A stretch of 64,000 nt of DNA from Bacteroidales bacterium (GCA_036655355.1 JAVVQG010000001.1:280045-344044), one strand, 5' to 3'; positions 1,056-50,610 are shown, numbered from the stretch's first letter. Translations and numbers: made by a program. The notes: generated from the sequence alone by a model not told the origin.

Positions 1056-2603
1056 ATGGCTACCCTGACGGCATTTATCAAGAAACGAGATTTGAAAGTT
1101 TATTTCTCCAGCATCCTAATAGGGATATTCGTGGGGCTTTTCAGCATTCTTTTCCGATACGTCATTGATCAATTGGGGGCGCTGCGAACCGGATATTTTG
1201 AATCTTCGCTCGCTTGGTATCTCAAATTTCCGCTTTATATCGCCTGCATCTATTTCGTTTTGCTCCTCATCAATTACATGATCATCAAATACCCGATTGT
1301 GGGAGGGAACGGGGCGGAACAGACACGGGGAATGTTAAACGGACATTTACACAGAAAAGAAGCCCCCAAGCACCTGTTGGAGAAATTCATCGGTTCGGTC
1401 TTCTCCCTCGGTTCAGGGATGTCTCTCGGACACGAAGGTCCTTCGATTCAGTTCGGAGGGTATATCGGTATGATTATCTCGCGATTTCTGAAAATAACAC
1501 CCGGAAGAGAGGAGTATATGCTTTCAGCCGGAGCTTCGGCGGGTGTGGCTGCTGCACTGAATGCTCCATTGGCAGGACCGATCTATATCATCGAATCACT
1601 GCAACAGATTAATAACATCCGGATGTCTATCTGCTCGTTGCTTGCAGGATTGGTAGGGGGACTGATCGCTTATGTATTTATGCCGGACAACCCCTATCGG
1701 TTTTTTGTGCTCAAAGGACCGGAGTTAAATGAATTTGTGGTTCCTGGAATCCTCATCGTAATGGGCATTTACATGATGATTTTAGGAACGTTGTTCACCA
1801 AATTAGTTGAATTCTTCAGAAAACGCTATTTTGCCGGAGTATACAGTGCGCGTATCCAACTCCTGGCACTGACCGTAATGATGGCGCTGATCGGCTACTA
1901 CATCCCGTTGCTTTTGGGATCGGGACAACCTTTTATGATTGCTCAGGGAGTTTCGGGAACGCTAGAAACGAGTAGAGCTGCATTGATTTTATTGATTAGC
2001 TTTCTTTTTACGGCTTTCTCTCAAGGAACTACCTTTCCCGGGGGTGCTTTTCTTCCATTATTAACGGTAGGAGGATTGAGCGGGCGTCTGTTCGGACTCA
2101 TCCTGCTCTCGCTGAATGTGGTGACGGTTGAACAACTGCCCTATTTTATGTTTCTGGGGATGAGTGCGATGTTCGTTATCGTTATGCGTACGCCACTCAC
2201 CGGATTCTTGCTAGTGCTTGAGATGACAGGGCACTTTGAGGTTCTCCTCCCCTCTCTGGCCGTAGGGATCGTTGGATATTTTTTAATTTCAACGGTAAAG
2301 ATGAAATCGCTTCCCGCGAGTCTCTACAATACATTGTTAAAACGGATCGAGTCCACTTCGGTAAAAACGTTGACCATTGCTTTCGAGGCGATGCCGAACT
2401 CCTATTTTATAGGAAAAGACGCGGCGGATTTAAACCTTCCTTCAGGAACACGGTTGCTTTATGTAAAACGGGAACACCGGGAAGTAACCCTAATGAACGG
2501 CGAAAAGATAGAAGCGGGTGACCAGCTTTATTTCGCTATTCAAAAAGAGGAAGTGGAAAAAGTTTACCTCGCCCTCCTTAGTTTATCTTCCGATCAACTG
2601 TGA
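1056..2603 (+). CDS. ClC-family voltage-gated chloride channel / H+-Cl- antiporter with a C-terminal TrkA-C-like domain
   Basis: Polytopic membrane ORF carrying the ClC selectivity motifs GSGMSLGHEGP and GGAFLP. It has a soluble C-terminal tail of about 90 aa (LNLPSGTRLLYVKRE...GDQLYF) of RCK_C type. Confidence 0.85.
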   Translation: MATLTAFIKKRDLKVYFSSILIGIFVGLFSILFRYVIDQLGALRTGYFESSLAWYLKFPLYIACIYFVLLLINYMIIKYPIVGGNGAEQTRGMLNGHLHRKEAPKHLLEKFIGSVFSLGSGMSLGHEGPSIQFGGYIGMIISRFLKITPGREEYMLSAGASAGVAAALNAPLAGPIYIIESLQQINNIRMSICSLLAGLVGGLIAYVFMPDNPYRFFVLKGPELNEFVVPGILIVMGIYMMILGTLFTKLVEFFRKRYFAGVYSARIQLLALTVMMALIGYYIPLLLGSGQPFMIAQGVSGTLETSRAALILLISFLFTAFSQGTTFPGGAFLPLLTVGGLSGRLFGLILLSLNVVTVEQLPYFMFLGMSAMFVIVMRTPLTGFLLVLEMTGHFEVLLPSLAVGIVGYFLISTVKMKSLPASLYNTLLKRIESTSVKTLTIAFEAMPNSYFIGKDAADLNLPSGTRLLYVKREHREVTLMNGEKIEAGDQLYFAIQKEEVEKVYLALLSLSSDQL

Positions 2604-2612
2604 TAAATCAAA

Positions 2613-2660
2613 AACACCTCATCCTCCAGGGTTCTATCCTGTGGGGTGAGGTGTTTCTTA
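2613..2660. terminator. bidirectional intrinsic terminator-like hairpin
   Basis: Arms AACACCTCA (2613-2621) and TGAGGTGTT (2647-2655) lie between the convergent genes ending at 2603 and 2676. An A-run lies before the hairpin and T-rich sequence after it. Confidence 0.55.
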
Positions 2661-2675
2661 TTTAAATAGAATGCT

Positions 2676-3113
2676 TTACGCTTTTTTAGAAGAAGTGAAT
2701 CGCAGTTCGATCACGAATGCCACAATCAGACCGATTCCACCGAACAAAAGGGTCGATGCCCCGTAGAGACCGGAGATTATTGAACCCGGAGTATTGCCTG
2801 AAGCATAAACACTGCCGAGATCGTTGGCATAATTCATATAGATAAAAAAAGCTACCAACAGTCCTATTCCCATTCCTGCCAACAAAGACCCAATTTTCAA
2901 AGCAGTGAATTTATTGCTACTTTTTTCGAAAATAGGCATGTTACCCGGCACTGTTAACATAGAGGCTAAATCGTATTCCGGGATTCTTTCTGAGAAATGC
3001 AACTTCTCAATAAGTAATAACCGTTCTTTCCGGCGTACGAATAATTCAAATAAGCGGTAAATACAAAGAGCTATAATACCCACAATAACAGGTGCAATAA
3101 TAAAATTCATCAT
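2676..3113 (-). CDS. small three-TM membrane protein, function unknown
   Basis: 145-aa ORF with an N-terminal TM helix, an RRKERLLLIEKL motif and two Gly-rich C-terminal TM helices. It is divergent from the sigma-factor remnant. Confidence 0.6.
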   Translation of the reverse strand: MMNFIIAPVIVGIIALCIYRLFELFVRRKERLLLIEKLHFSERIPEYDLASMLTVPGNMPIFEKSSNKFTALKIGSLLAGMGIGLLVAFFIYMNYANDLGSVYASGNTPGSIISGLYGASTLLFGGIGLIVAFVIELRFTSSKKA

Positions 3114-3252
3114 AAGGCAGTCGTTTTTAAAGGTTCAACTTTTAAGTTCTGTCTATTTGACGCATCGGATTCTGATTGGTTACAAATTTTCGAATAAAAA
3201 ATATTCTATTTTCTTTGTAACCGTTGTATGTTACCTGCGTCTATATAAAAGA

Positions 3253-3641
3253 ATGAAAAACCTGAATGACACATATTATATTAAACGGATTCGTGAAGGA
3301 GATACCGATTGCTTCGGCTGTCTTCTGGACCGATACAGCCGTCAGGTATTTGCGCTTATCGTTCGTGTGACCAACAACAAAGAAGAGAGGTTCGAATCCA
3401 ATGCGCTTGGATTATAACGGCCACTTTTTCGTTGTTGGGATTGGCTTATTACGCGCTAAAATCTATAGATTTCACATTTCAACTGCCCGATTTCTCACTT
3501 GAAATACCGGCTTTTTCATTGCACATCCCCCAACCACATATTCCTACAATATTCATTTGCATCGGTTTTTGCGCTCTTCTGCTGTTGGGTTTGGATTATC
3601 TGATGCGCAGACTCTATTTCAAGCATAAACGAAATAATTAA
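3253..3641 (+). pseudogene. remnant of an ECF-type sigma-70 factor joined out of frame to the tail of a membrane-protein gene
   Basis: MKNLNDTYYIKRIREGDTDCFGCLLDRYSRQVFALIVRVTNNKEE is a typical ECF sigma region-2 N-terminus. It breaks off after 45 aa, at about nt 3388, and stops at 3417. A second frame (to 3641) encodes only a TM-rich C-terminal tail (ITATFSLLGLAYY...LLLLGLDYLMRRLYFKHKRNN). Confidence 0.5.
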
Positions 3642-3693
3642 ACTTCGCGATGTAAAAAGAAGACGCTCGTTTTTCAGCTTGGCCTTTGGATGC

Positions 3694-3701
3694 TAAATTT
3701 G
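3694..3701 (+). promoter_or_regulatory. Bacteroidota -7 promoter box (TAnnTTTG)
   Basis: TAAATTTG lies 62 nt upstream of the ATG at 3764. Confidence 0.4.
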
Positions 3702-3763
3702 ATGAAAATACTATTATCTTAGCACCTTTGAAAAACAAACCCATACCAATACCATCGTCCTTG

Positions 3764-5383
3764 ATGAAACTGAAACATTATGCATTCCTTGGCGCGCTGC
3801 TTGGCGCCAATACCACATTGATTGCCCAGATTGAGCTTCCAACCATGGGCTGGAGTTCGTGGAATACTTACAGAATAAACATTAGCGATAAACTCATTAT
3901 GGAGCAAGCGGATGCGATGAAAGCATCCGGTTTGGGAGATGCGGGGTACCGTTACATCAACATCGACGACGGTTATTTCGGCGGTCGCGATGCAAACGGC
4001 AATCTGATTACGCATCCCGTACGCTTTCCGAAAGGATTACAAGAGGTCGTCAACCACATTCACGATCTTGGATTCAAAGCAGGTATCTATTCTGATGCGG
4101 GCTGCAATACCTGTGGGCATTTTTGGGATAAAGACACCATTGCACAGGGAGTGGGACTCTATGGACACGATGATCAAGATGCAAACTACTTCTTTAAAGA
4201 TCTTGGGTTCGATTTTATCAAGATTGATTTCTGCGGAGGAGATGCGAAACAAAATTTCGGCAATTTGGCCCTGGATGAGAAAACCCGCTATACGGAAATT
4301 CGTGAAGCAATCAATCGCGTCGGTCGAGAGGATGTTCGCATCAACGTATGTCGTTGGGCTTTCCCGGGAACATGGGTCCAGAGTATCGGCTCTTCCTGGC
4401 GAATGTCTCCCGATATCAATCCGAGTTGGGGTAGCGTGAAAAGTATCATCGCCCGGAATCTTTATTTATCGGCCTATGCCACAGAAGGCCATTACAATGA
4501 TATGGATATGCTTGAAGTGGGTCGCGGAATGGGAGAAACAGTTGATCAGACTCACTTCGGAATGTGGTGTATCATGAGTTCTCCGCTTCTGATCGGATGC
4601 GATATGACAACGATTTCAGAACAGACGTTGAACTTGCTTAAGAACAAAGAACTGATTTCTCTGAATCAGGACCCTCTTGGAATTCAAGCCAACGTAGTGG
4701 CTAAATCGGGAGAAGTATATCTATTGGCTAAGGATCTTGAAACAATCGGTGGAAAGAAACGCGCCTTTGCGATTTACAATTCAGGCGATAAACCCGCTGT
4801 ATTTACAGTTGACCTTGCAAATCAGATTAACCTTAGCGGAAAGGTGAAGTTACGCGATGTTGCAAAACAACAGGATGCGGGGATAATTACCGACGGCCGA
4901 CTAACGGTGGAAGTTCCGGCTCGTGGTTCGGCATTCTATATCGCAGAAGGAAAAAAACGAATCGAACAAAATCGATACGAAGCGGAGGATGCCTGGTTGG
5001 AAGGATACAGCGCCATTGATGTGAAGAATGAGGAGACGGTGGCAGACCGTGCTCGCGTAACTACAAACAAAAACTACTCCGGCGAAAAAGCGGTTTCATT
5101 TCTGGGAAAACCGGGTAACTGGATGGAATGGCGTCGCATTTATAGTAAAAAGGGGGGCGATTACCTCTTGACACTTCACTATGTGGGGGGAGATGCATCT
5201 TCTGCCGATTTGAGCGTAAACGACAAAACGGTTTCACTTAGCAACCTCAAGAAAGGCGAAGAGAATAAATTACAGCAGGTTACGGTTCCGGTAAAACTAA
5301 AGAAAGGTTTAAATACGATCCGAATCGGGAATGAAATCGGATTCACACCGGTAATCGACTGCATCGATCTGAAGAAAAAATAA
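3764..5383 (+). CDS. exported GH27 alpha-galactosidase with a C-terminal CBM6/35-like module
   Basis: Signal peptide MKLKHYAFLGALLGANTTLIAQ. GH27 motifs GWSSWNTY, YINIDDGYF and DFIKIDFCGG are present. The C-terminal ~130 aa (RYEAEDAWLEG...NTIRIGN...IDCIDL) resemble a CBM6/35 fold. The start was moved from the listed TTG at 3686 to the ATG at 3764. Confidence 0.85.
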   Translation: MKLKHYAFLGALLGANTTLIAQIELPTMGWSSWNTYRINISDKLIMEQADAMKASGLGDAGYRYINIDDGYFGGRDANGNLITHPVRFPKGLQEVVNHIHDLGFKAGIYSDAGCNTCGHFWDKDTIAQGVGLYGHDDQDANYFFKDLGFDFIKIDFCGGDAKQNFGNLALDEKTRYTEIREAINRVGREDVRINVCRWAFPGTWVQSIGSSWRMSPDINPSWGSVKSIIARNLYLSAYATEGHYNDMDMLEVGRGMGETVDQTHFGMWCIMSSPLLIGCDMTTISEQTLNLLKNKELISLNQDPLGIQANVVAKSGEVYLLAKDLETIGGKKRAFAIYNSGDKPAVFTVDLANQINLSGKVKLRDVAKQQDAGIITDGRLTVEVPARGSAFYIAEGKKRIEQNRYEAEDAWLEGYSAIDVKNEETVADRARVTTNKNYSGEKAVSFLGKPGNWMEWRRIYSKKGGDYLLTLHYVGGDASSADLSVNDKTVSLSNLKKGEENKLQQVTVPVKLKKGLNTIRIGNEIGFTPVIDCIDLKKK

Positions 5384-5407
5384 TTTTCGTGTCTTTAAAC
5401 AAGTAAA

Positions 5408-5444
5408 ATGGCCGAAGCGTATGAATGATGCTTCGGCCATTTTT
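5408..5444. terminator. bidirectional intrinsic terminator
   Basis: Perfect 11-bp stem ATGGCCGAAGC (5408-5418) / GCTTCGGCCAT (5430-5440), flanked by AAAA and TTTT. It lies between the convergent genes ending at 5383 and 5472. Confidence 0.75.
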
Positions 5445-5471
5445 GTTATATCGTGAAAAATAAGAAGGTTA

Positions 5472-7493
5472 TCACTTCGCATTAAAACGCAGGGTAACTC
5501 CCCCTTTCACCCAGATTCCGGGTTGTGGAATGTTCCCCAAATCAACATACTTGCGGTTTAAGAGGTTGTTCGCTTCTGCATAAATAGTGTAAAGGGGACG
5601 TACCCACTGTATTTTTAGGTCAACAATGCCATAAGATGGATAAGGTACCTCTCCCACCGGTTGCAGTTGTTCATAACGTGTATAACTACCCATTCGCTGT
5701 TGCCAACGGTATGCCCAGGTAGCTGATAAATCGCGCCAGATGGTATGCGTGAGTTGGGCGGTAAATTTATGCCGAAGGTACTCTAATGCATAGTTGGATT
5801 TATAAACATCGCCTGTTTCTTTTTGCTGATGAATGTAGGCGTAACCCAGATCCAGACGTTTCAGAAACAGCTCCGGCGTGAACAAAGATGAAAAATCGAT
5901 TACGGCAGACACCTCCACCCCCATATTGTTGAGAGACGTATGGTTGACGGTCTTCCATTTCTCATCCTCCGATGAGGTTTTTATCCAATCGATCATATCG
6001 GTTCCACGTTGGTAAAAAACGCTCAGTGAGGTTATAGCAAAATAATTGGTGTAACGGCTTCCGATCTCGAATGCTTCATTCTTTTCAGGTTTCAGATCCG
6101 GATTCCCTTCATTGGTAGCACTCTTATAATACAGATCGGTAAAAGTCGGCATCCGCAAAGAGCGATTCCAACTTGCATAAAGTTTCAAATTGTCGGAAAT
6201 TCTGTAACCGGCATCAATTCCCGGATAGAAGCGCATCCCTTGATTCAATGCGGTATTATAAGCTCCCAACACGCCGACGGAAAGTGTAAAACGATCCAAA
6301 AGTAGGTTATGTTCGGCATAAACACTCAAATCGGTGCGTTCATCGCCGTATAAATAATGTCCTGAAGGTCGTGCTCTCTCTTTTCCCAATACACTACTCA
6401 AAACCTCTTCGTGACGCACTTCCACTCCGATCGCCGTCTTTCCTGCAACACTGCTGTAAGAGGCATTGAGATTCATCCCCGACACATCGGTACGATGATA
6501 GTTCGCTCCGGCATACCAGGACGGGAAATCTGAACGGAACAATTCGAACCGGTCATAGGTGCGATGAGCATACAGTTGAGAGGAGGTTTGAATCACTCCG
6601 GGCGTAGCAATGCGGAACGAGCCGAAATAACGACGCACATGTTCGTATTGATTTGCATATTTGGGTGAGTAGAAGGTATTTGCACCAAACCCTTTATCGG
6701 AAATGCCGAATTGTAAATCAGCATTCATTTTCCGGCCTTGATAATTTCCTTGGTAAAACCCGCGGCTTCCGGAGAAATCGCTGTTGGAAACAGCACCGTC
6801 AGATCTGAAATAAGCGCCGGAGATGTGATTGGTGAAAGCTCCTGTCTGAAGCGATGCGCCGAGTTCTCCCTTAATCAGCCCGTATTGCCCTCCCTGTAAA
6901 TCCGCTGAGACGGTATTGGCCTGCTCCTTTCGGGTAACAATATTGATGGCTCCGGTAAAAGCGGAAGTTCCAAAGACACGCGCTGCCGGTCCGCTAAGGA
7001 TCTCGATTCGCTCGATATCGCTCATATTAACCGGAATGTCTGCCGAAAGATGTCCCGTCTGCGGATTATTGACATTCACCCCATTCAACATCAGGGTAAT
7101 CTGATCGAAAGTACCTCCCCGCAAAGAGATATCGGTTTGAATTCCAAATTCTCCCCGTTGGCGTACGTCTACTCCAGCGACGTACTTTAATAGTTCGTTT
7201 ATACTCTGTACGGGAGCGGCCGCAATCTCTTTGCGACTTACCACCTGTACGATACGAGGTGTTTGTTGTTGAGTCAGAGGAACGCGTCCCGCAGTCACCT
7301 CTATTTCTTCGAGTTCATAAACCGGTTCAGTAAATGCCGTTTGTTGTTGTGCGTGCAACGTCCCTGCCGAGAAGGAGTGCAGAACCACAACCGACAGAGA
7401 GGCGATGGTTATCTCTTTCTGAAGACTGCGAAAGATCGCATACGGTTTATTCGAGAAACGACTCCAACGATAATTCGTTACGGATGAATTCAT
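5472..7493 (-). CDS. TonB-dependent outer-membrane receptor (not SusC-type; BtuB/siderophore-like size)
   Basis: 673-aa ORF with a signal peptide, plug-domain motifs (IEVTAGR, DVRQRGEFG, ISLRGG, ERIEILSGPA) and a long Tyr/Gly/Asn-rich barrel region. Confidence 0.85.
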   Translation of the reverse strand: MNSSVTNYRWSRFSNKPYAIFRSLQKEITIASLSVVVLHSFSAGTLHAQQQTAFTEPVYELEEIEVTAGRVPLTQQQTPRIVQVVSRKEIAAAPVQSINELLKYVAGVDVRQRGEFGIQTDISLRGGTFDQITLMLNGVNVNNPQTGHLSADIPVNMSDIERIEILSGPAARVFGTSAFTGAINIVTRKEQANTVSADLQGGQYGLIKGELGASLQTGAFTNHISGAYFRSDGAVSNSDFSGSRGFYQGNYQGRKMNADLQFGISDKGFGANTFYSPKYANQYEHVRRYFGSFRIATPGVIQTSSQLYAHRTYDRFELFRSDFPSWYAGANYHRTDVSGMNLNASYSSVAGKTAIGVEVRHEEVLSSVLGKERARPSGHYLYGDERTDLSVYAEHNLLLDRFTLSVGVLGAYNTALNQGMRFYPGIDAGYRISDNLKLYASWNRSLRMPTFTDLYYKSATNEGNPDLKPEKNEAFEIGSRYTNYFAITSLSVFYQRGTDMIDWIKTSSEDEKWKTVNHTSLNNMGVEVSAVIDFSSLFTPELFLKRLDLGYAYIHQQKETGDVYKSNYALEYLRHKFTAQLTHTIWRDLSATWAYRWQQRMGSYTRYEQLQPVGEVPYPSYGIVDLKIQWVRPLYTIYAEANNLLNRKYVDLGNIPQPGIWVKGGVTLRFNAK

Positions 7494-41464: not shown

Positions 41465-44400
41465 TCAACTATTTACCGAATTCTGCTTTCTATACTGGGT
41501 TGGAGTTACGCCTTTAACCTGTTTAAAAAGCGTACTGAAATATTTCGGGTATTCAAAACCCACCGTTGTAGAAATCTCCGTAATTGTAAGATCTGAGGTT
41601 ACAAGCATTTCAGCACCCTTTTCAATTCGTAGGCGATTGATATAATCGTTAACGCCCAAATTGGTGAGTGCTTTTAATTTTGCATAAAGAGGAGTTCTGC
41701 TGATGTGCATCTGCTCAGTCAGAAATTTGATATCAAGCGTATTCGTTGACATATTGTCAAAAATAAGTTGATTCAGCTTGGACAGAAACTCTTCATCTTT
41801 GTTGGTTACCGAAACCGACGTACGGTCTGTCAAACGCACGAATGCATCTCGATATTTTTGTTTTAAAAGCTCGCGATTAGATAACAGCGTATGCATCGTT
41901 ACTTCCAGAAAATCCAGATCAAACGGTTTAGGTATAAACGCATCCGCCCCTAACCTGAATCCGTTAATATTACTCTGCACGTCTCCCCTTGCCGTAAGTA
42001 AAAGTACGGGGATATGCGATGTAACCGGATCGGTCTTTAATCGATGACATAATTCATAGCCGTCCATGGCTGGCATCATGATGTCACTGATTACAATATC
42101 CGGCATCTTTTTTCTAATTAATTCTAACGCTTCCGCACCATTCGAAGCGATAGAAACCTCTTTGTAGTTCTTCGACAAAACTTCAAAAAGGAACAAGCGT
42201 AAATCTTCATTATCTTCTGCGATCAGAACGGTTCGGTCATTTGTAGAAACCATTGATTCCTCTTTGTACCCTTCTGAAAACAAGTTGTCGGAGGTAAATA
42301 AAGCGTATTCTTCCGAGATTCGTTCATCTTTCGGCACATTGATCGCATTCACATCAAGCGTCATGTTGATGATCGCTTTCATCCGATTGGCTGACTTGTG
42401 TATGCCGACAAGGTGTTTTTTGAGATATTCCATATCCTCATTCAGAGGCGAATCGCCGTCGAATTTCTCAATCATCCTTTTTAAGGGCGTATAAATTAAC
42501 GTAAGCGGTGTACGAAGTTCATGACTGACATTAATCAGGAAATTGATTTTCTCTTGATTCGCCATTTGTAAAACTTCATTCATTTCTCGCTTTTGCAATT
42601 GCTCTTTTCTTCGCAGTATAAACAGTACAATTGCTATAACAAGCGTAGCGATTAACACGAAAAGCGTTATTTTAGTATGGGTTCGGAGGTACCAAGGGGG
42701 TAAAATATGCATCTCGACGATCTTTTCCGGTGAACTCCAATCGCCATTCACGGTAAAGCAAGAAAGATAGATCGTATAATTCCCGGGAGAAAGCATATTC
42801 AGCGTCAAGGTAGAATTATAGGACTCGATATCCCTGTTATTTTCGCCGGGCAACATCTCTTTCACAACCGTATAACGATATAACTTCTTCCGAAAAACAT
42901 CTTTATCAATAGCGGAAACCTTTATTTTCAATACGTTATAGTCCCAAGGCAAAGAGATCGATGCAAAACCGTTCTCTTTATATTCTTTCGAGTTCAAAAC
43001 CGTAATGCCATCCACCTCGATGTCGTTCAACCTCAGTTCCGTTTCTTTCTCATGCATGGTCTGTATAGACTTATCTATCTGGATCAGTCCCTCTACACCG
43101 GCCAGATAGAGAGCGGGCAAATCTTTTGACCAGATATAGGCATCCGTAACTTCATTATGAGAAAACCCGTCCGCCTCTTCCCAAATCTGGAATCTTTCGT
43201 TGTGTTTGTTGTAAGAAAAAAGCATATTACGGGCCCCAATCCACAAAATGGAATCAGCAACCGGAACAATTGCAGTAACACGATCGAAAAGATTGGTCGT
43301 CAGCTTAGCGTACCTCTTTCGACTCGGATCAAAAAAGCGCAATCCCTGATCTGTTCCGACCCAAAAGAGGCCGTCATTGTCTTTATTCACTGTTTGAATG
43401 ATCTCGCCATCTTCGATTTTATAAAAGGAGGATATGGTGTTTGTCGCGAAATTTAACCGCATAATCTGTTTTTCGCCCCAAAGGAAGCATCCCTCGCGAT
43501 CCACATGAATTACCTTCAGGGATAGTAAGGGATCGGTTACGCCCTCTATTTTCAAATAGAGGCGCGCTTTCGTCTGAATATCATAAATGAAAGGGGTATT
43601 CGTTATTGCCAGTAGCCGATTTGAACCTAGTTGGTACAGCCGGTTCGGTGTTTCGGAGATGTCAAAAGGTGAGACACTCCCGTTGGTTTTATTGAATTTA
43701 AATAACCCTTTCCCATAAAACAGAACCAGCAATTCCCGAGGGGAGTACTCTGCAATGGATATAACCTTCTCATTGTCAGTGGAAGCAAAGTGTTTAAACT
43801 TCTTTGTTCGGGGATTAAAACAATTGAGACCGCCCCCCTCGGTCCCGATCCAGATATTCCCTTCCGAACCAAGATAAAGTGAACTTATCGTTTTATTACT
43901 TACCCCGTAATTACTCCCAAAAGGCACATTCTTATAGGTTTGGATAGATACTTCCTTAATTTCGAACAATCCGACTTTAATGCTTCCGGCCCAGATATTT
44001 CCCTCCACATCTTTATAAAGAGAACCGATGGAGTTGGTCGGGATTGAGTTCTCATCGCCGGATACATGTTGGATATTGGTTATCGAGCGTGGATTTTCGA
44101 GATTCAATATACTGACACCTCCACCATCGGTTGCCAACCAAATGTTCCCATCTTTTTCGACCATATCCAAAATGATGTTGTAGGCGAGGTCAGAATTCTC
44201 GGAGGTCAAATGATGCTTCTGATCGCCATTCTTGTCAAAAATATAGAGTCCGTCATTAAATACAGACACATACATATTTTTTGCTTCATCCAAGTAAAAC
44301 GCCAGAATATTTCGGAGCGGTAAGGAGAATGGTAATTTCGAAATTGCACCGGTAGTAGCGTGATAAAGCCTGATCTGCGCATTGGCATATACCAAGATGT

Positions 44401-44968
44401 AGCTATCCGAATCCCATTTGCTTATGTGAACCACCTTTGAGGAAGCAAGTTCTGAATCGTCAATCGGAAGGTGTTGAAAAGAGGAATCGTTATAGTTGTA
44501 TCGATATAAAGCATTCGTGCCACCGAATAACACTCCGTCGGGGATCAGAGAAGTAGCATACACTTTGATGTTGTTTCCGGAAACAGGGGAAGTAAAACGA
44601 TCTGTCGCTTGGTCATATTTAACAAGTCCCCCCATTGTTGAAACCCAGATGGTATTTTGAGCATCCTGTGTGAGAAATAAGATGTAATTTCCGGAGAGCG
44701 AAAAAGGATCGTTCGCTTTATGGAAATAGTTTTTCATTTCATACCCGTCATAACGGTTCAAACCAAATCCGGTTCCGATCCACAGCTCTCCGTTCTCCGT
44801 TAAAAGCGTAGAGGTGACCGTAGTATGGGATAATTGTTTCTCAACATTAAACTTCCGATAATAATAATCATTACCCGCATAAAGGTGCGGAACCAAACAA
44901 GAGGAAACAAACACAAAAAGCATTTTCAATACAAATTGAAAACGTTTAGAGGAGAATTTAGTAAGCAT
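41465..44968 (-). CDS. hybrid two-component system regulator (propeller/Y_Y_Y sensor, TM, HisKA, REC, AraC HTH) lacking the HATPase_c domain
   Basis: Periplasmic two-propeller repeats (IWVGT, LWIAT and similar), a TM helix, the H-box NVSHELRTPL, a REC domain (VLIAEDNEDL...ISDIMMPAMDG) and an AraC HTH at the C-terminus. Only about 97 aa separate the H-box His from the REC domain. Confidence 0.8.
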   Translation of the reverse strand: MLTKFSSKRFQFVLKMLFVFVSSCLVPHLYAGNDYYYRKFNVEKQLSHTTVTSTLLTENGELWIGTGFGLNRYDGYEMKNYFHKANDPFSLSGNYILFLTQDAQNTIWVSTMGGLVKYDQATDRFTSPVSGNNIKVYATSLIPDGVLFGGTNALYRYNYNDSSFQHLPIDDSELASSKVVHISKWDSDSYILVYANAQIRLYHATTGAISKLPFSLPLRNILAFYLDEAKNMYVSVFNDGLYIFDKNGDQKHHLTSENSDLAYNIILDMVEKDGNIWLATDGGGVSILNLENPRSITNIQHVSGDENSIPTNSIGSLYKDVEGNIWAGSIKVGLFEIKEVSIQTYKNVPFGSNYGVSNKTISSLYLGSEGNIWIGTEGGGLNCFNPRTKKFKHFASTDNEKVISIAEYSPRELLVLFYGKGLFKFNKTNGSVSPFDISETPNRLYQLGSNRLLAITNTPFIYDIQTKARLYLKIEGVTDPLLSLKVIHVDREGCFLWGEKQIMRLNFATNTISSFYKIEDGEIIQTVNKDNDGLFWVGTDQGLRFFDPSRKRYAKLTTNLFDRVTAIVPVADSILWIGARNMLFSYNKHNERFQIWEEADGFSHNEVTDAYIWSKDLPALYLAGVEGLIQIDKSIQTMHEKETELRLNDIEVDGITVLNSKEYKENGFASISLPWDYNVLKIKVSAIDKDVFRKKLYRYTVVKEMLPGENNRDIESYNSTLTLNMLSPGNYTIYLSCFTVNGDWSSPEKIVEMHILPPWYLRTHTKITLFVLIATLVIAIVLFILRRKEQLQKREMNEVLQMANQEKINFLINVSHELRTPLTLIYTPLKRMIEKFDGDSPLNEDMEYLKKHLVGIHKSANRMKAIINMTLDVNAINVPKDERISEEYALFTSDNLFSEGYKEESMVSTNDRTVLIAEDNEDLRLFLFEVLSKNYKEVSIASNGAEALELIRKKMPDIVISDIMMPAMDGYELCHRLKTDPVTSHIPVLLLTARGDVQSNINGFRLGADAFIPKPFDLDFLEVTMHTLLSNRELLKQKYRDAFVRLTDRTSVSVTNKDEEFLSKLNQLIFDNMSTNTLDIKFLTEQMHISRTPLYAKLKALTNLGVNDYINRLRIEKGAEMLVTSDLTITEISTTVGFEYPKYFSTLFKQVKGVTPTQYRKQNSVNS

Positions 44969-45338
44969 ATGCTATGAATTCGACGGTATTAAATTTGTCT
45001 GCGAATGTAGCATTTTTAATGATTCTGAAATCGCTCTTAACCCTTAAATCATTTTCAGATCCACCGGATAATGAATTTAATACTCTTTGATAAATTGGAA
45101 TTTATTTAATCTTACCTATGGTCTCATGAAAAGATGGCACTGCTTTCTTACTATTTCGTTTTCTAAATCAAGTTTTCGTATTTTTTCTTTTAAATCATTG
45201 TCAATATAATGTTAGTAACATTATATTTCTTCTCGGTATATTAGGACAACTTCTTATTTGTCGAGTAGGCTATTAACTTATCCTTCCAACTGGAATCATT
45301 TACAGAATGAGGGAAAGGGGTGCTTCAGCGTACTTAGG

Positions 45339-45584
45339 TTAGTATTCCTGCTCTCTCATAAACTCGTCCGCCACATATAAATTGCCATATAGGTATAATC
45401 CTGTACCCTTATCATGTAAATCCGCACAGGTTTTACTAGCATAAAATAATTCCAAGGCTCTCTCTGGATCGATATTTAGCCGTTTTGCTAATTCTGCAGA
45501 GATCTGTCCGATACGATTACTTATTATCATTTCCTGGATTTCCGGGGATTCGACCGGGTCATTCTGCTGATTCTGTTCCATCAT
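45339..45584 (-). CDS. small helical protein, DUF3791-like third gene of the triad
   Basis: 81-aa ORF with the HTH-like segment IGQISAELAKRLNIDPERALELFYASKT. It overlaps the upstream gene by 26 nt. Confidence 0.55.
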   Translation of the reverse strand: MMEQNQQNDPVESPEIQEMIISNRIGQISAELAKRLNIDPERALELFYASKTCADLHDKGTGLYLYGNLYVADEFMREQEY

Positions 45585-46050
45585 AAATAAGATATTTATC
45601 AGTCAACGTTTGGTTTAATAAACAGATCTGGTTATTGGGCCGATGCATGGAAAGACGTTTTAGTGCAATGTCGGCACTCATCAACCCCGACATATATAGA
45701 TTGATGGTATCAATCACACGATCATTAGCGATGCCACCTTCAATATAATCATAATCAGCTGATGGATTCTGCCCTTTCCGGCTACCAACTATAAACTCAA
45801 GCCAATCAGCATCGTATGCATTGAATATTTTACATCTCCCCTCTTTAAATAGGGCTTCTTTCTCAAGGATATAACAGTTGATAACGGGAATTCCCTTTCT
45901 TTTTTGTGCGGTAAGGCTTGCCCATTTTATAGCCTGGTCTTTTATGTCTGTAACATAGAAGCCTGGTCCGAAGTCAAGATTGTTGCGACCAAAAGCGCAG
46001 ATTGGATTTTCTACTGTTTCAGTGGCTCCATGATATACCTTGATTTTCAT
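45559..46050 (-). CDS. DUF3990-like protein with ADP-ribosyltransferase-like motifs
   Basis: MKIKVYHGA...DFGPGFYVTD...DYIEGGIANDRV. The start was set at the ATG that forms an ATGA overlap with the upstream stop. Confidence 0.6.
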   Translation of the reverse strand: MKIKVYHGATETVENPICAFGRNNLDFGPGFYVTDIKDQAIKWASLTAQKRKGIPVINCYILEKEALFKEGRCKIFNAYDADWLEFIVGSRKGQNPSADYDYIEGGIANDRVIDTINLYMSGLMSADIALKRLSMHRPNNQICLLNQTLTDKYLIYDGTESAE

Positions 46051-46286
46051 AGCTTCCCCTCCCAAGTTGTCAGACATTCTATCATGTTGTTTGTGACATT
46101 TTCTCGGCTTTCAATATGAAGCATCTCATAATTTGGCCATATATAATTACGAATCATTCCTACATGTTTCATTCGCTCAAATATTTCCTGATAAGGTTTA
46201 CCCAATGCACGGGCTGTCCCTTCGATGCAAGAAGCGACAAAGGCCAATTTAATTTCTGTTTGAGATAACTCTATCAATTGTTCCAT
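46047..46286 (-). CDS. DUF3791-like small helical protein
   Basis: 79-aa ORF. The segments FVASCIEGTARALGKPYQEIFERM and NYIWPNYEMLHIESRENV match my recollection of DUF3791. Confidence 0.55.
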   Translation of the reverse strand: MEQLIELSQTEIKLAFVASCIEGTARALGKPYQEIFERMKHVGMIRNYIWPNYEMLHIESRENVTNNMIECLTTWEGKL

Positions 46287-46957
46287 AATATTTGATTATT
46301 TAGTAAGCTTTAGGTTGATGATGTAAATGCAAGATGCTTATTGAGTTTGCGATCTCTATTCTTTTAAAATCTCAGATAAAATGGATTGACCCGTTTTAAT
46401 GAAGACATAGACTAATCCATGCTAAACATTTGATTAATATCCAATTAAAAGGATTTAAACTCAAATATACACAATCATTCCGATATTGTCAACTTTGATA
46501 TTGACAATATTCTTTCTTCTGGTTTATGCCTGGCATCTAAGAAAAATAAGACACGGCAGCATAAAAATGATCCGATTTATTGCTCTTATAAATGATATGC
46601 GTAGTAGTTATGTTGTTATTTTTCAATGTTATTCGAAGTGTGTCTCCTTTAAGATAGCCATCTATATTCTTTTTAACAAGCTCTTGTTCCCTCTTATCTG
46701 TCACAGGTGATACCTCTTCAGAAGTAGAAGCGACGGACACCTTGTAGTAATTAGCGTGATTAACAATGGAAAAGGACTCTTTGAATACTTTTGCAAGAGA
46801 ATCAATCGAAATGTTTTTTTGTAACTATCTCTTTTTTAGCCGAATCACTTTGATGCATAATTTGAGAAATCCCCATCGCTACAAAGCGTTTAATTGCTTT
46901 CTATAAATAAGCAGGTTGCTTTCAGAGGTTTCAGCTATTCAATAATTCGAACGAGAA

Positions 46958-46999
46958 GGGAAGAAAACAGAACCGGATGGGAAGAAAAGAAAACGGGAT
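46958..46999. repeat. 21-bp tandem direct repeat, 2 units
   Basis: Units GGGAAGAAAACAGAACCGGAT and GGGAAGAAAAGAAAACGGGAT. Confidence 0.8.
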
Positions 47000-47024
47000 G
47001 CCTAGAAAAAGATGTCGAGACCGC

Positions 47025-47101
47025 GGTTACACGCTAGTTCAAGCACGGTTACACGAAAGTTTAAGCGGGGTTACACGAAAGTTCAACCGCGGGTTCACAC
47101 G
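47025..47101. repeat. 22-bp tandem direct repeat, about 3.5 units
   Basis: Units are GGTTACACGCTAGTTCAAGCAC, GGTTACACGAAAGTTTAAGCGG, GGTTACACGAAAGTTCAACCGCG and a partial GGTTCACACG. Confidence 0.85.
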
Positions 47102-47110
47102 TTTTTCATC

Positions 47111-47136
47111 GGAAGAAAGCATCTTTTCTTCCTTTT
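47111..47136 (+). terminator. terminator-like hairpin directly after the repeat array
   Basis: GGAAGAAA-gcatct-TTTCTTCC followed by TTTT. It is oriented for plus-strand transcription. Confidence 0.45.
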
Positions 47137-47288
47137 ATATCAGATTTTTATGTTTTCTAAAAATTCAGCGAGTAGTTTATCTATCGAAACTTAAATCTTT
47201 TTTACTTTTATTTTATACAATATTGTTAATTTTACAAAAGTAGCTACTTTTAAATCCGACATCAAGTAAAAGTAAAAAAATTCTAACC

Positions 47289-48524
47289 ATGAAGATGAAC
47301 CGTTCTTTTATAAACCTGATTATTTTATCATTCCTAATACTCATAAGTAGTTGTGCAAAAAACAATCAAAAGTCTCAATCAATCGAGGATGAATCACTCT
47401 ATACGATAAGTGCAGAAAACAATAGTTCAAAAACTACAAAATACGATAGTTTTATCAATAACCTGAAGTTTCTAAAATTAGAAACAAATACGGATTGTTT
47501 GATAGGCGAAGAGATTAAGAATGTGAAAATTGAAAAGGATCGAATCTTCATATTGGATAATAATACGAACTTATTTGTATTTGATTTGAATGGGAATTTC
47601 TTACACAAAATAGGAAGAAGAGGAGATGGTCCGGGTGAAGTGCAATCTATCTCTAATTTTTGCCTTAATAAAGAATTGGAAGAGATTATTTTATTCGACA
47701 TAGCGAAGAATACGCTGTTGCTTTTTGATTATGATGGGAAATTTATCAGAAGTACAAAATTCAATGAACGTCTTGATATAACGAATTTTGAAGTTATCAA
47801 TAATAAAGAATTGCTTGTTGAGTTCCTAAATACAAAATATAATGATGTTCCGGATTCGAATAGAAGGTATAATTATGGCATTGTCAATATAGAAGATAAT
47901 TCAATCAAGAGTCGATTCATCCCCTTTCTGGTTAAGCTAAATATGCCAGTTTTAATGAATGGTTTAATGGAAACTTCTGATAAACAAGCACTAATGACGA
48001 CATTATTTTCAAACACATTGTATAAATATGATCGTAAGAGTGACAAAATGCAGAAGTATCTAGAGATAACTCCGAAGGATGACCTTAAGTTTATATCATC
48101 TTCTACTTTTGAGCAAGATCAATCGCAGGATTATTCAGAGGTTATGCAATATATCTATAAGAATAACTATACACATGGGATAAATAAAATACTCCTAACA
48201 TCGAAGTATATTTTTTTAAACGTCTGGACTGAACAGGGTAAAACGACACACATCGTTTTTGATATGGAAACACATCAAAGTTTTGAATTCAATTTTGACA
48301 AGAAATTGATAGCGGAACTTGATGAATACATTTTAAACATTCCACCATTTAAAAACAACAATACAGTAATAAAAGTACTTCAGAGTGAATACCTCATTGC
48401 TAATAAAACAAAATATGAACCTATAAAAGGTTTATACGACTCAATCAACGAATTAAATGGAGAAGAAAATCCGATACTTATATTCTATGATTTAAATCAT
48501 TTATTAGAATCTTCAGAAAGTTAG
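47289..48524 (+). CDS. 6-bladed beta-propeller lipoprotein (BF3164-like family)
   Basis: Lipobox ILISSCAK. Repeated motifs around IFILD, LFVFDLNGNFLHKIGRRGDGPGE and LLLFDYDGKFI are typical of Bacteroides BF3164-type propellers. The gene is AT-rich. Confidence 0.6.
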   Translation: MKMNRSFINLIILSFLILISSCAKNNQKSQSIEDESLYTISAENNSSKTTKYDSFINNLKFLKLETNTDCLIGEEIKNVKIEKDRIFILDNNTNLFVFDLNGNFLHKIGRRGDGPGEVQSISNFCLNKELEEIILFDIAKNTLLLFDYDGKFIRSTKFNERLDITNFEVINNKELLVEFLNTKYNDVPDSNRRYNYGIVNIEDNSIKSRFIPFLVKLNMPVLMNGLMETSDKQALMTTLFSNTLYKYDRKSDKMQKYLEITPKDDLKFISSSTFEQDQSQDYSEVMQYIYKNNYTHGINKILLTSKYIFLNVWTEQGKTTHIVFDMETHQSFEFNFDKKLIAELDEYILNIPPFKNNNTVIKVLQSEYLIANKTKYEPIKGLYDSINELNGEENPILIFYDLNHLLESSES

Positions 48525-48673
48525 AGTTAAGGTCTTATTTTCCTTACGATTGTTCCTCTAAGCTGTGGTATCGAATAAGTTCAAAGATAATTTTATGTAG
48601 AACAGAAAATTACACTCTAAGATCTGTATCAAAGAACATGACACGACCTTTTGTGTATTATTTGAATTTGAAT

Positions 48674-49108
48674 TTATATTCTGATTTTCCTTTTTGTAAT
48701 TATATAAACAACAGCAGAAATACCCCCTATGATAGAAAGGAAGCACAACCACGGGATGTTTGTTCCCAACACTTCCCCATCTTTAAAAAAGAAATCCATT
48801 AATGCCACGGGGAGTGCCAATAGGGATACTTTCGCAATAAGATAACTGTATTTTACAACCAGGTAAATTTTATATTCGTTCCATTGATCCTCTTTCCCTG
48901 CATGTATATATTCCTTTTTCAGTTTGTCATATTTAAAACAAATACGACAACAACTGCCTCCAAGGATCATACTCCATGCAGGTATAAAATATACTAATCC
49001 CTCTTCCTTATTTTCCCAAAAATAATTCCCTTTCACTGTAAAGAATAATAAAAACAGGAATATGCCAAAGGTTAAGGCACTTAGAATAAATATATAAAAA
49101 TATCTCAT
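48674..49108 (-). CDS. small four-TM membrane protein, hypothetical
   Basis: Hydrophobic ORF. The start was placed at the ATG (MRYFYIFILSAL) rather than the listed TTG at 49141. Confidence 0.45.
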   Translation of the reverse strand: MRYFYIFILSALTFGIFLFLLFFTVKGNYFWENKEEGLVYFIPAWSMILGGSCCRICFKYDKLKKEYIHAGKEDQWNEYKIYLVVKYSYLIAKVSLLALPVALMDFFFKDGEVLGTNIPWLCFLSIIGGISAVVYIITKRKIRI

Positions 49109-49644
49109 CGTAGTTCGTTGTTTTATAATTCCATGACTCAATTAATTATGTAAATAAAATGAGTTGTATCTAATTTAAGAAATTATTCGCTATTGGTCAA
49201 ATAGAACACTTTATACAACAGTTTCAGTTGTATTCTTCCCCATAAATTAGACAGACGTAAATTTAATATAAATGTTTAATTTTGATAGGACGACGAAACA
49301 ACAAAGAAGAGAAAACATACAGAAAGTGAAATAGTTAAATCTATTTAGAAGTAAGAAAGCGGAGGAACACTTATGAAATTACCTGAGATTATGGGACTTT
49401 AAGAGCAATCTGGTATAATTTGACATTGGAATATACCGGAATGAAAGAAAGCCTATTATTCGACTGCAACTTACCGGTTCAATGAATTTTGTAAATGAAT
49501 AATGTGCGCGAATTATCAGAATCCTTGGTAACGGATTATAATGAAATCAGTATGACATTAAAAATGCAACTTTGGCTGCCTAATTTAATACCGTCTGAAA
49601 AAGGGGAAGCGGACAATCCGGAGAATGTGTTAAGCTAAAAAACG

Positions 49645-49652
49645 TATCTTTG
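49645..49652 (+). promoter_or_regulatory. Bacteroidota -7 promoter box (TAnnTTTG)
   Basis: TATCTTTG lies only 4 nt before the listed ATG at 49657. This favours the internal ATG at 49717 as the true start. Confidence 0.4.
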
Positions 49653-49656
49653 TTTA

Positions 49657-50277
49657 ATGGTACAAGAAAGACCTCATTATGATCACTTTTCAAGTGACAC
49701 ACACTCAAACTCAGCTATGGAAGAAATTTATATACAAGATAAGATATTTGACAGAATCGATAAGTTGGAAAAAGGAGAATATGAGAATTGCACTTTCAAT
49801 AGTTGTGACTTTTCAGATCATGACTTTTCCGAATATAAATTTATAGATTGCATATTCAAGGGATGTAATTTAAGTTTGGTAAAACTAGATAAAACAGCAT
49901 TGAGAGGGGTAAAATTTAGCGAATGTAAAATATTGGGCGTTCATTTTGACACTTGCAATCAGTTTGCCCTTTCCTTTTCATTTGACGGATGCGTGCTTAA
50001 TTATTGTTCGTTTTACAGAACCAAAATCAGAAAGACTGTATTTCGCAATTCTCAATTACAAGAGGTCGATTTTGTAGAAACTGACTTGACATCGACTATA
50101 TTTGATAAGTGCAATCTGACACAAACAATCTTTGAGAACACAATACTTGAAAAGACAGACTTCCGCACTTCTTGTAATTATTCAATCGACCCAGAGATTA
50201 ATAAAATAAAGAAAGCGAAATTTTCTATACCGGGTGTTTTGGGCCTTTTAGATAAATACGATATAAGCATACAATAA
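49657..50277 (+). CDS. pentapeptide-repeat protein (Qnr/MfpA-like fold)
   Basis: Tandem A(D/N)LXX-type pentapeptides are present (NCTFNSCDFSDHDFSEYKFIDCIFKGCNLSLVKL...). The more likely start is 49717 (MEEIYIQDK). Confidence 0.7.
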   Translation: MVQERPHYDHFSSDTHSNSAMEEIYIQDKIFDRIDKLEKGEYENCTFNSCDFSDHDFSEYKFIDCIFKGCNLSLVKLDKTALRGVKFSECKILGVHFDTCNQFALSFSFDGCVLNYCSFYRTKIRKTVFRNSQLQEVDFVETDLTSTIFDKCNLTQTIFENTILEKTDFRTSCNYSIDPEINKIKKAKFSIPGVLGLLDKYDISIQ

Positions 50278-50610
50278 TGAGATCAAGGGGAGAAATAAAC
50301 CTTTGTAGCTTGGGGTAACATGGATCGTTTTAGGGCATACACGTCGACGTTAGTTCCCTATATACCTCTAATATTTGGACCAATATTTTCGTGGGGAGCA
50401 ACCATCGATGAAGTCGTTATTGGAATATCGTTGATGATAGGCACATTCAAACGTTAACCTATATGGCTAGTGATATATTGCTACTTATTTTAGAAATTTC
50501 AATAATGCTATTCTTAGCGATAAGAACCCTATTTGATTATTGCATATTTGCAGCAACTGCTTGTAGTTTATCATTATATGGTGTAAGGAGAATAGAAATG
50601 GGGGTGAAAC

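What the first reader, a model, noticed from the sequence alone, without database searches (positions are those of the whole stretch)
45339..46286. Overlapping three-gene module DUF3791 / DUF3990 / DUF3791-like with ADP-ribosyltransferase-like motifs: a candidate toxin-antitoxin or NAD-dependent effector system
Three minus-strand ORFs of 79, 163 and 81 aa are translationally coupled. There is an ATGA overlap at 46047-46050 and a 26-nt overlap at 45559-45584. The middle protein shows, in order, VYHG, DFGPGFYVTD and DYIEGG. The spacing and context resemble the H-Y-E triad of PARP/diphtheria-toxin-type ADP-ribosyltransferases (HG[ST] ... G.Y[FV] ... E). Both flanking proteins are small and helical with HTH-like segments (GTARALGKPYQEIF and ISAELAKRLNIDPERALELF). 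This is the pattern expected for antitoxins or DNA-binding adaptors. As far as I know these families have no experimentally defined function. The module sits in an AT-rich island and is bracketed by palindromes at 45203-45227 and 46483-46510.
Basis: partly seen in the sequence, partly recalled or inferred. Interest (0 to 1): 0.65.

Follow-up and report, generated by a model that had tools for sequence, protein, structure and literature searches.

The report
ART-like toxin cassette, two partners (PDC-M13)
Three tightly coupled small genes encode an enzyme with the fold of NAD-using ADP-ribosylating toxins and two related small helical partner proteins; the set is real and intact, but it is an ordinary member of a widespread family already listed as an untested anti-phage candidate (PDC-M13).

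Summary
Three minus-strand genes (79, 163 and 81 aa) overlap as described, by ATGA and by 26 nt.

They match all three components of PADLOC phage-defence candidate PDC-M13: DUF3791, DUF3990 and a divergent DUF3791. The order A-B-C is kept in about 70 of 76 loci from other species. All three genes are under strong purifying selection and diverge together.

The middle protein models confidently (pLDDT 96). Its only structural neighbours are ADP-ribosyltransferase (ART)-fold proteins: ParT, MbcT, PARP3 and phage ART-PolyVal. Pfam already places DUF3990 in the ART clan.

H7 and Y32 are conserved (93% and 96%), but E104 is not (33%). The conserved acid is D101 (99%), just before strand 102-105.

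The partners are not detectably helix-turn-helix proteins. DUF3791 models as a five-helix fold with no PDB match. The bracketing palindromes are not conserved.

New here: the trio recurs in permuted and fused forms (B-C fusions; a C-A fusion on pBF9343; B-C-A inside a type I restriction-modification operon), which argues for a three-part complex. A same-genus genome has cleanly lost B and kept A and C.

The most likely function is a toxin held in check by two partners, acting in addiction or abortive infection. No experiment exists. It is a new member of a known, catalogued kind.

The parts
46047..46286 (-). Gene A: 79-aa DUF3791 protein ('A-type' partner). Its stop codon lies inside the ATGA overlap with gene B.
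   Evidence: ORF. Pfam DUF3791 1e-13. PADLOC PDC-M13A 2e-13. AF2 model pLDDT 95.6 with five helices and no PDB neighbour at E<3. Invariant in relatives: F16, E22, A25, Y53, H57.
45559..46050 (-). Gene B: 163-aa DUF3990 protein, an ART-fold putative NAD-using toxin or effector. Candidate site residues: H7 (46030-46032), Y32 (45955-45957), D101 (45748-45750). An alternative upstream start at 46077 would give 172 aa.
   Evidence: Pfam DUF3990 3.6e-41 and ART-PolyVal 0.019. PDC-M13B 1.9e-45. AF2 pLDDT 96.1. Foldseek: ParT, MbcT, PARP3 and Arr in PDB; ART-PolyVal-like proteins in BFVD at E 6e-5. Residue conservation. The ATGA start is the commonest arrangement in relatives.
45339..45584 (-). Gene C: 81-aa divergent DUF3791 protein ('C-type' partner). 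It overlaps the end of gene B by 26 nt.
   Evidence: ORF. PDC-M13C 4.6e-9. No Pfam hit for this copy, but 11 of 28 orthologues hit DUF3791, best 2.4e-6. The Hallella orthologue scores 26.2 bits against a cut-off of 25. Profile-profile alignment to A is weak but in register, E 0.0065.
46047..46050 (-). ATGA stop/start overlap between A and B (translational coupling).
   Evidence: Sequence. A 4-nt overlap is the commonest A/B arrangement, in 32 loci.
45559..45584 (-). 26-nt overlap of the B stop region with the C start.
   Evidence: Sequence. Overlaps of 20, 23 or 26 nt are kept in 47 related loci. More distant relatives have gaps of 1-6 nt.

Best explanation
This is an intact chromosomal copy of the three-gene cassette catalogued as PADLOC phage-defence candidate PDC-M13.

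Gene B (DUF3990) encodes a small ADP-ribosyltransferase-fold enzyme. Its likely NAD+ site is built from H7 on strand 1, Y32 on strand 2, and D101 at the start of strand 102-105.

Genes A and C encode two anciently diverged paralogues of DUF3791, a small five-helix protein. The three are made together from one coupled operon.

Inferred mechanism:
- A, B and C form a ternary complex in which the A-type and C-type partners keep B inactive.
- When the complex is disturbed, B uses NAD+. The trigger could be phage infection or loss of the element. B then either ADP-ribosylates an essential target or destroys NAD+, and growth stops (abortive infection or addiction).

Shown here: the genes, their coupling, family membership, the ART-like fold, the pattern of conserved residues, co-inheritance, fusions and mobility.

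Inferred only: the complex, toxicity, NAD+ use, the target and the trigger.
For: - Membership: all three proteins hit the PDC-M13 A, B and C models and the Pfam families DUF3791 and DUF3990.
- Fold: the AF2 model has pLDDT 96.1. The PDB neighbours with any signal are all ART-fold proteins: ParT (E 0.03, probability 0.72, TM 0.44-0.49), MbcT, PARP3, Arr and pertussis-like A subunits. In BFVD, ART-PolyVal-like phage proteins match at E 6e-5, probability 1.0. DUF3990 is listed in the Pfam ART clan (PMC7955679).
- Site: among 81 homologues, one per 50%-identity cluster, H7 is kept in 93%, Y32 in 96% and D101 in 99%. They fall on strand 1, on strand 2 and just before strand 102-105.
- Unit of inheritance: A-B-C order is kept in about 70 of 76 loci. 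The divergences of the three genes correlate (r = 0.81), and dN is far below a saturated dS. Neighbouring genes are unrelated from locus to locus: 143 Pfam families among 147 neighbours.
- Complex: natural B-C fusions exist (P0135, P0133, P0188, P0245). A C-A fusion sits next to DUF3990 on pBF9343. The order B, C-type, A-type occurs between hsdM and hsdS on a Moraxella plasmid.
- Toxin-like behaviour: DUF3990 sits at the C-terminal toxin position of T6SS Rhs effectors (PMC4524185, PMC10763514). A same-genus genome has a clean deletion of about 455 bp that removes B and keeps A and C intact. B is broken in 7 of 76 loci, A in about 2, and C in none (it is absent from one locus).
- Mobility: homologues occur on 83 plasmids, one beside a zeta-toxin family gene.
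Against: - No experiment on any member was found in the literature.
- The PDB fold matches are weak (no hit at E <= 0.001).
- Model coordinates are not exposed, so I could not check that H7, Y32 and D101 cluster in space.
- The partners have no recognisable antitoxin, DNA-binding, macrodomain or hydrolase features.
- A partner that can be fused covalently to B is not a classical labile antitoxin.
- Neighbours are mostly housekeeping genes, with only a few defence genes. Enrichment in defence islands is therefore not shown here.
- The excess of broken B genes rests on small numbers. B is twice as long as A or C, and many of the loci are MAGs.
Confidence: 0.55

Rival explanations
1. B is a pure NAD+-degrading enzyme, a glycohydrolase or phosphorylase like the RES-domain toxins and MbcT, rather than a transferase. 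Growth arrest would come from NAD+ depletion. A and C would still be inhibitors.
For: The best PDB neighbours are the RES-type toxins ParT and MbcT. B is small (163 aa) and has no obvious target-recognition domain.
Against: No Pfam RES hit, and no Xre-type partner. The conserved residues follow an H-Y-acid pattern rather than R-E-S. ParT itself is a transferase. Closer structural matches are to ART-PolyVal.
Confidence: 0.2
2. The cassette is an offensive or counter-defence tool of mobile elements. B would modify a host defence or host factor for the benefit of a plasmid, conjugative element or phage, as proposed for ART-PolyVal domains. A and C would be specificity or delivery adaptors rather than inhibitors.
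For: The closest named structural relatives are phage ART-PolyVal-like proteins, with weak HMM matches to ART-PolyVal. Homologues occur on 83 plasmids, 28 of them conjugative, and in 4 uncultured phage contigs.
Against: Most copies, including this one, are chromosomal and sit between housekeeping genes. Copies are embedded inside a type I RM operon, which is the context that made it a defence candidate. Loss of B with retention of A and C fits a toxin better than an adaptor model.
Confidence: 0.12
3. B is a non-toxic housekeeping or repair enzyme of the ART superfamily, for example Tpt1/KptA-like removal of RNA 2'-phosphate, or reversible regulatory ADP-ribosylation. A and C would be its substrates or regulators.
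For: The H-Y-type ART clade includes non-toxic enzymes such as Tpt1 and Arr (established knowledge; Arr appears among the weak hits). In one Hallella/Prevotella clade an ADP-ribosylglycohydrolase gene lies next to the cassette.
Against: The distribution is patchy and mobile: one copy in this genome, absent from the DNA search in most relatives, and plasmid-borne elsewhere. The domain is used as an Rhs toxin tip (PMC4524185). B is lost repeatedly. The glycohydrolase neighbour is seen in one closely related group only.
Confidence: 0.08

Closest known systems
PADLOC phage defence candidate PDC-M13 (Payne, Hughes, Fineran, Jackson, bioRxiv 10.1101/2024.01.29.577857), with its two-gene relative PDC-M10
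   Same: All three proteins hit the PDC-M13 A, B and C models (2e-13, 1.9e-45, 4.6e-9). Gene content and coupling are the same. B also hits PDC-M10A (1.9e-27) and A hits PDC-M10B.
   Different: Nothing material; this is a member. PDC systems are untested candidates picked by embedding in RM, BREX or DISARM loci. This copy is not embedded in a defence system.
ParST and MbcTA (RES-domain ART-superfamily toxin-antitoxin systems; PDB 6d0i, 6fkg)
   Same: The toxin is a small ART-superfamily enzyme of about 160-180 aa, and these are the best PDB fold matches. A small partner is encoded in the same coupled operon. Both kinds of system are borne on mobile elements and plasmids.
   Different: No RES Pfam match. 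The conserved pattern is H-Y-D, not R-E-S. There are two DUF3791 partners of unknown fold instead of one Xre-type or MbcA antitoxin. TM-scores are only 0.44-0.49.
ART-PolyVal domains of phage and conjugative-element polyvalent proteins (Pfam PF18760)
   Same: The best named structural match in the viral library (E 6e-5, probability 1.0). Weak sequence matches cover the H and Y strands: 0.019 here and 4e-5 in a homologue.
   Different: ART-PolyVal is a domain inside giant multi-domain proteins. Here the enzyme stands alone with two dedicated small partners. The HMM scores are below the Pfam threshold.
DarTG (ART toxin DarT with macrodomain antitoxin DarG)
   Same: An ART-fold toxin of the H-Y-E type in a TA or defence operon.
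   Different: No DarT Pfam hit and no macrodomain partner. Neutralisation, if any, would be by binding rather than by enzymatic reversal.
Rhs C-terminal toxin domains carrying DUF3990 (Serratia Rhs5-CT, Enterobacter RhsA; PMC4524185, PMC10763514)
   Same: The same Pfam domain, sitting at a toxin position.
   Different: There it is the tip of a secreted T6SS effector with its own immunity gene. Here it is a free cytoplasmic protein with DUF3791 partners. The toxicity of those tips was not tested either.

Membership tests
PADLOC PDC-M13 | Three adjacent genes matching the PDC-M13 A, B and C profile HMMs | tested here: met
   A 2e-13, B 1.9e-45, C 4.6e-9. The genes are adjacent and overlapping.
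PADLOC PDC-M13 | Anti-phage activity | not testable with these tools
   PDC systems are untested candidates by definition. No experiment was found.
Pfam DUF3990 / DUF3791 | Score above the Pfam gathering threshold | tested here: met
   B scores 140.8 bits against a cut-off of 32.2, and A scores 51.5 against 25. C itself has no hit, but 11 of 28 orthologues do.
ADP-ribosyltransferase superfamily (Pfam clan ADP-ribosyl) | ART fold (split beta-sheet core) | tested here: met
   A high-confidence model. All PDB neighbours with any signal are ART-fold proteins, though weakly (best E 0.03). In the viral library, ART-PolyVal-like proteins match at E 6e-5. Clan assignment is stated in PMC7955679.
ADP-ribosyltransferase superfamily, H-Y-E type | Conserved His on strand 1, Tyr on strand 2 and catalytic Glu (or Asp/Gln) at the start of strand 5, clustered around NAD+ | tested here: inconclusive
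H7 is kept in 93% and Y32 in 96%, on the expected strands. D101 (99%) sits just before strand 102-105. Spatial clustering could not be measured, because no coordinates are exposed.
ADP-ribosyltransferase superfamily | NAD+ binding and ADP-ribosyl transfer or NAD+ hydrolysis | not testable with these tools
   This needs biochemistry.
Type II toxin-antitoxin system | Coupled operon of a toxin and a small partner, borne on mobile elements and plasmids | tested here: met
   The overlaps. Homologues on 83 plasmids. A copy next to a zeta-toxin family gene on pBF9343. Heterogeneous chromosomal contexts.
Type II toxin-antitoxin system | Toxin arrests growth and the partner neutralises it by binding | not testable with these tools
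   Indirect evidence only: the B deletion with A and C retained, and the fusions.
Type II toxin-antitoxin system | Antitoxin with a DNA-binding domain (HTH, RHH, AbrB) that autoregulates at a conserved operator | tested here: not met
   No DNA-binding Pfam hit. No significant fold match for the DUF3791 model. The upstream palindrome is not conserved.
RES-Xre / MbcTA | RES domain (R-E-S motif) with an Xre or MbcA antitoxin | tested here: not met
   No RES or Xre Pfam hit. There is structural resemblance only.
DarTG | DarT domain plus a macrodomain antitoxin | tested here: not met
   No DarT or Macro hits. The partners are small all-alpha proteins.

The most novel reading that the evidence does not exclude
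The A-type and C-type DUF3791 proteins have a fold with no solved relative. They could form a heterodimeric sensor-inhibitor that holds an H-Y-D ADP-ribosyltransferase inactive and releases it on a phage cue. That would be a tripartite ART defence system with a new sensing module, and possibly a new target class such as a nucleic acid or a translation factor. It would act in one of the most abundant untested defence candidates of gut and rumen Bacteroidales.
Probability: 0.3. Interest if true: 0.65.

Novelty: new member of a known kind. Interest (0 to 1): 0.3.

Why it matters
PDC-M13 is among the most frequent defence candidates in rumen and gut Bacteroidales, with 3,324 loci in one rumen survey (PMC13356809), yet nobody has tested it.

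This work gives a sharper hypothesis to test:
- an H7/Y32/D101 site rather than H/Y/E104;
- a requirement for one A-type and one C-type partner, supported by fusions in three architectures;
- natural loss of B with retention of A and C.

It also points to a tractable relative, the two-gene version on plasmid pBF9343 of Bacteroides fragilis NCTC 9343. If toxicity and phage defence are shown, the family would add a new ART-based system and a new small-protein fold to bacterial immunity. As a genome feature in this window, however, it is an ordinary, already catalogued cassette.

Tried and rejected
- Sequence search of B, alone and as a profile, against PDB chains gave only chance hits: Rpn10 and PDE5.
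- NCBIfam and PHROGs gave nothing useful.
- HTH or DNA-binding partners: rejected for lack of any Pfam or fold support.
- Palindromes as operators or cassette ends: rejected, because upstream DNA is unrelated among loci. Homology starts near the A start codon.
- E104 as the catalytic residue: rejected on conservation.
- Defence-island context: the neighbours of 52 non-redundant loci are overwhelmingly unrelated housekeeping genes, with only a few methyltransferase, PDC-S01 or HEC-02 hits.
- A linked ADP-ribose-removing enzyme: found in only one closely related Hallella/Prevotella group, so it is not a general partner.
- Empty-site comparison within the genus: the region left of the GGGtGRT gene differs in every relative and holds transposase genes in G001, so no clean insertion boundary could be drawn.
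- Rfam scan of the flanks: no hit.
- Spatial clustering of H, Y and D: not possible, because model coordinates are not exposed.

Full report
**Observation.**
- The window carries three minus-strand ORFs: A at 46047-46286 (79 aa), B at 45559-46050 (163 aa from the ATG inside ATGA), and C at 45339-45584 (81 aa). An upstream ATG at 46077 would make B 172 aa.
- The two palindromes exist.
- The 'AT-rich island' is only partly right. The genes are 38-41% GC. The low-GC stretch lies in the intergenic flanks and, above all, to the right at 47200-50600.

**Identity.**
- A is Pfam DUF3791 (1e-13). B is DUF3990 (3.6e-41), with a sub-threshold match to ART-PolyVal (0.019).
- C has no Pfam hit itself. However, 11 of 28 orthologues hit DUF3791, and a Hallella orthologue passes the threshold.
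- The A and C profiles align weakly but in register (E 0.0065).
- All three proteins hit the A, B and C models of PADLOC candidate PDC-M13 (2e-13, 1.9e-45, 4.6e-9).
- PDC systems are 145 untested candidates chosen because copies are embedded in RM, BREX or DISARM loci (bioRxiv 10.1101/2024.01.29.577857).
- PDC-M13 was among the most abundant systems in a rumen survey, with 3,324 loci (PMC13356809).

**Conservation as a unit.**
- B has more than 1,200 close relatives, and 2,225 50%-identity clusters match at E <= 0.001.
- In 76 loci from other species, mostly Bacteroidales MAGs and isolates, the order A-B-C is kept in about 70. In the Hallella/Prevotella group, where tblastn missed A, a divergent DUF3791 gene sits at the same place with an ATGA overlap.
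- The 4-nt A/B overlap is the commonest arrangement. B/C overlaps of 20-26 nt mark the near clade, and gaps of 1-6 nt mark the far clade.
- Divergences of A, B and C from the window copy correlate (r = 0.81). dN is 0.01-0.24 while dS is saturated, so all three genes are under strong purifying selection.
- DNA homology between loci begins near the A start codon. The upstream regions, including the 46483-46510 palindrome, are unrelated.
- The neighbours of 52 non-redundant loci fall into 143 Pfam families among 147 proteins, mostly housekeeping, with few defence hits.
- The genome holds a single copy.

**Fold and site of B.**
- The AF2 model is confident: pLDDT 96.1, pTM 0.89.
- In PDB, no hit reaches E <= 0.001. 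Every neighbour with any signal is an ART-fold protein: ParT (E 0.03, probability 0.72, TM 0.44-0.49), MbcT, PARP3, Arr and pertussis-like A subunits.
- In the viral library, an unnamed protein matches at E 9e-11 (TM 0.71), and ART-PolyVal-like phage proteins match at E 6e-5.
- Pfam already lists DUF3990 in its ART clan (PMC7955679).
- Among 81 full-length homologues, one per 50% cluster, conservation is: H7 93%, Y32 96%, D26 96%, W83 100%, R91 99%, D101 99%, G105 100%, D110 95% and Q141 93%. E104 is E in 33% and I in 37%.
- H7 lies on strand 2-9 and Y32 on strand 31-34. D101 lies immediately before strand 102-105.
- These are the canonical positions of the H-Y-E triad (established knowledge of ART folds). 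I therefore read the site as H7-Y32-D101. This is an inference, because model coordinates are not exposed.
- The window copy has A9 where 85% of the family has S (YHGS).

**The partners.**
- The DUF3791 model (A) is confident (pLDDT 95.6) and all-alpha: helices 9-28, 32-41, 44-49, 53-56 and 61-78.
- It has no PDB neighbour better than E 3.5.
- Nothing supports an HTH. Invariant polar residues (E22, Y53, H57, and near-invariant R38, S60, R61) suggest a specific interaction surface.

**Evidence for a three-part complex (new here).**
- Natural B-C fusions exist as full-length proteins: P0135, P0133, P0188 and P0245, with C-profile E-values from 1e-19 to 1e-28.
- On B. fragilis NCTC 9343 plasmid pBF9343, a 149-aa protein is a fusion of a C-type unit (27-73) and an A-type unit (84-148). 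It is coupled by a 4-nt overlap to DUF3990 and lies next to a zeta-toxin family gene.
- On Moraxella osloensis plasmid pNP7-2, the order is hsdM, B, C-type, A-type, hsdS, all overlapping by 4 nt.
- So one ART plus one C-type plus one A-type unit recurs in three architectures.

**Toxin-like behaviour.**
- DUF3990 sits at the C-terminal toxin position of T6SS Rhs effectors (PMC4524185, PMC10763514, PMC12165300).
- A same-genus genome (G001) carries A and C intact but has lost B through a clean deletion of about 455 bp, at a different chromosomal site.
- B is frameshifted or truncated in 7 of 76 loci, A in about 2, and C in none (it is absent from one locus).
- Several metagenomic representatives are A(N-terminus)+B(C-terminal half) chimeras that lack H7 and Y32.
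- The numbers are small and many of the loci are MAGs.

**Mobility.**
- Homologues occur on 83 plasmids, 28 conjugative and 9 mobilizable, and on 4 uncultured phage contigs.
- In the window, the cassette is followed at 45084-45196 by a decayed copy of a short leucine-zipper ORF. In G001 that ORF lies beside an rve-integrase gene.
- The region left of the GGGtGRT gene differs in each genus relative.

**Literature.** Only four held papers mention DUF3990, one mentions DUF3791 and one mentions PDC-M13. None reports an experiment on these proteins.

**Earlier notes of this scan.** They describe the same cassette in more than 50 genomes, with the same conclusion. I treated them as leads and re-derived each point here.

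**Limits.**
- Spatial clustering of the site residues, toxicity, NAD+ use, the target and anti-phage activity are all untested.

**Verdict.**
The ART-like toxin module is right. The catalytic E, the HTH and the palindromes are not supported.
- This is an ordinary member of a catalogued but experimentally untouched family.

Noticed in passing
window 46961-47131 (core 46992-47114): A dispersed repeat of about 110-170 nt with eight further copies in this genome (75-91% identity, on contigs C14, C13, C2, C8, C17, C18, C10 and C3). It contains internal GGTTACACGAAAGTTYAA-like units and folds into a long hairpin (z = -2.9). A terminator-like hairpin follows at 47111-47132. There is no Rfam match.
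   Followed up: partly
window 45084-45196 (-): A decayed copy, with a stop and a frameshift, of a short leucine-zipper ORF. In the same-genus genome G001 this ORF lies beside an rve-integrase (transposase) gene next to the GGGtGRT gene. Similar DNA also occurs in G000:C4 and G008. It looks like an insertion-sequence remnant directly downstream of gene C, next to the 45203-45227 palindrome.
   Followed up: partly
L092 (G001:C30) 3107-3621: A same-genus relative has genes A and C intact, but gene B is removed by a clean deletion of about 455 bp that leaves only its last ~28 nt. This copy is at a different chromosomal site, beside a truncated Fic-family ORF.
   Followed up: yes
L067 2822-3613 (also L063, L066, L068, L072): An ADP-ribosylglycohydrolase gene (PF03747, 2.6e-34) lies divergently next to the A-B-C cassette in a closely related Hallella/Prevotella group. 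This is a single lineage, so it is only a hint of a link to ADP-ribose.
   Followed up: partly
P0135, P0133, P0188, P0245; P0142, P0132, P0137, P0143: Two kinds of metagenomic variants appear among the representatives. The first four are full-length B-C fusion proteins. The last four are short chimeras that join the N-terminus of A to the C-terminal part of B. Three of them (P0142, P0132, P0143) break near B residue 73 and lack the H and Y strands; P0137 breaks near residue 23.
   Followed up: partly
L101 (pBF9343, NC_006873.1) 2555-4615: The B. fragilis NCTC 9343 plasmid carries the two-gene version: a 149-aa fusion of C-type and A-type DUF3791 units, plus DUF3990. It lies immediately next to a small ORF and a zeta-toxin family gene. 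This is a tractable laboratory system.
   Followed up: partly
L102 (Moraxella osloensis pNP7-2) 3454-7070: DUF3990, a C-type partner and an A-type partner are embedded between hsdM and hsdS of a type I RM operon, each overlapping the next by 4 nt. The gene order is permuted (B first).
   Followed up: partly
L048 4933-5349; L060 8049-8282; L006 847-981: Extra copies occur near some cassettes: a second, 30%-identical DUF3990 ORF right after gene C in L048, and additional A-like genes or fragments a few kb away in L060 and L006.
   Followed up: no
window 41465-44968 (-): The neighbouring hybrid two-component regulator (1167 aa) has HisKA at 807-873 and the receiver domain from 914. No HATPase_c match falls between them, and only about 40 residues separate them. 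The kinase ATP-binding domain appears to be missing.
   Followed up: no
P0006: One source names a DUF3990 protein 'elongation factor P hydroxylase'. This looks like a mis-annotation.
   Followed up: no
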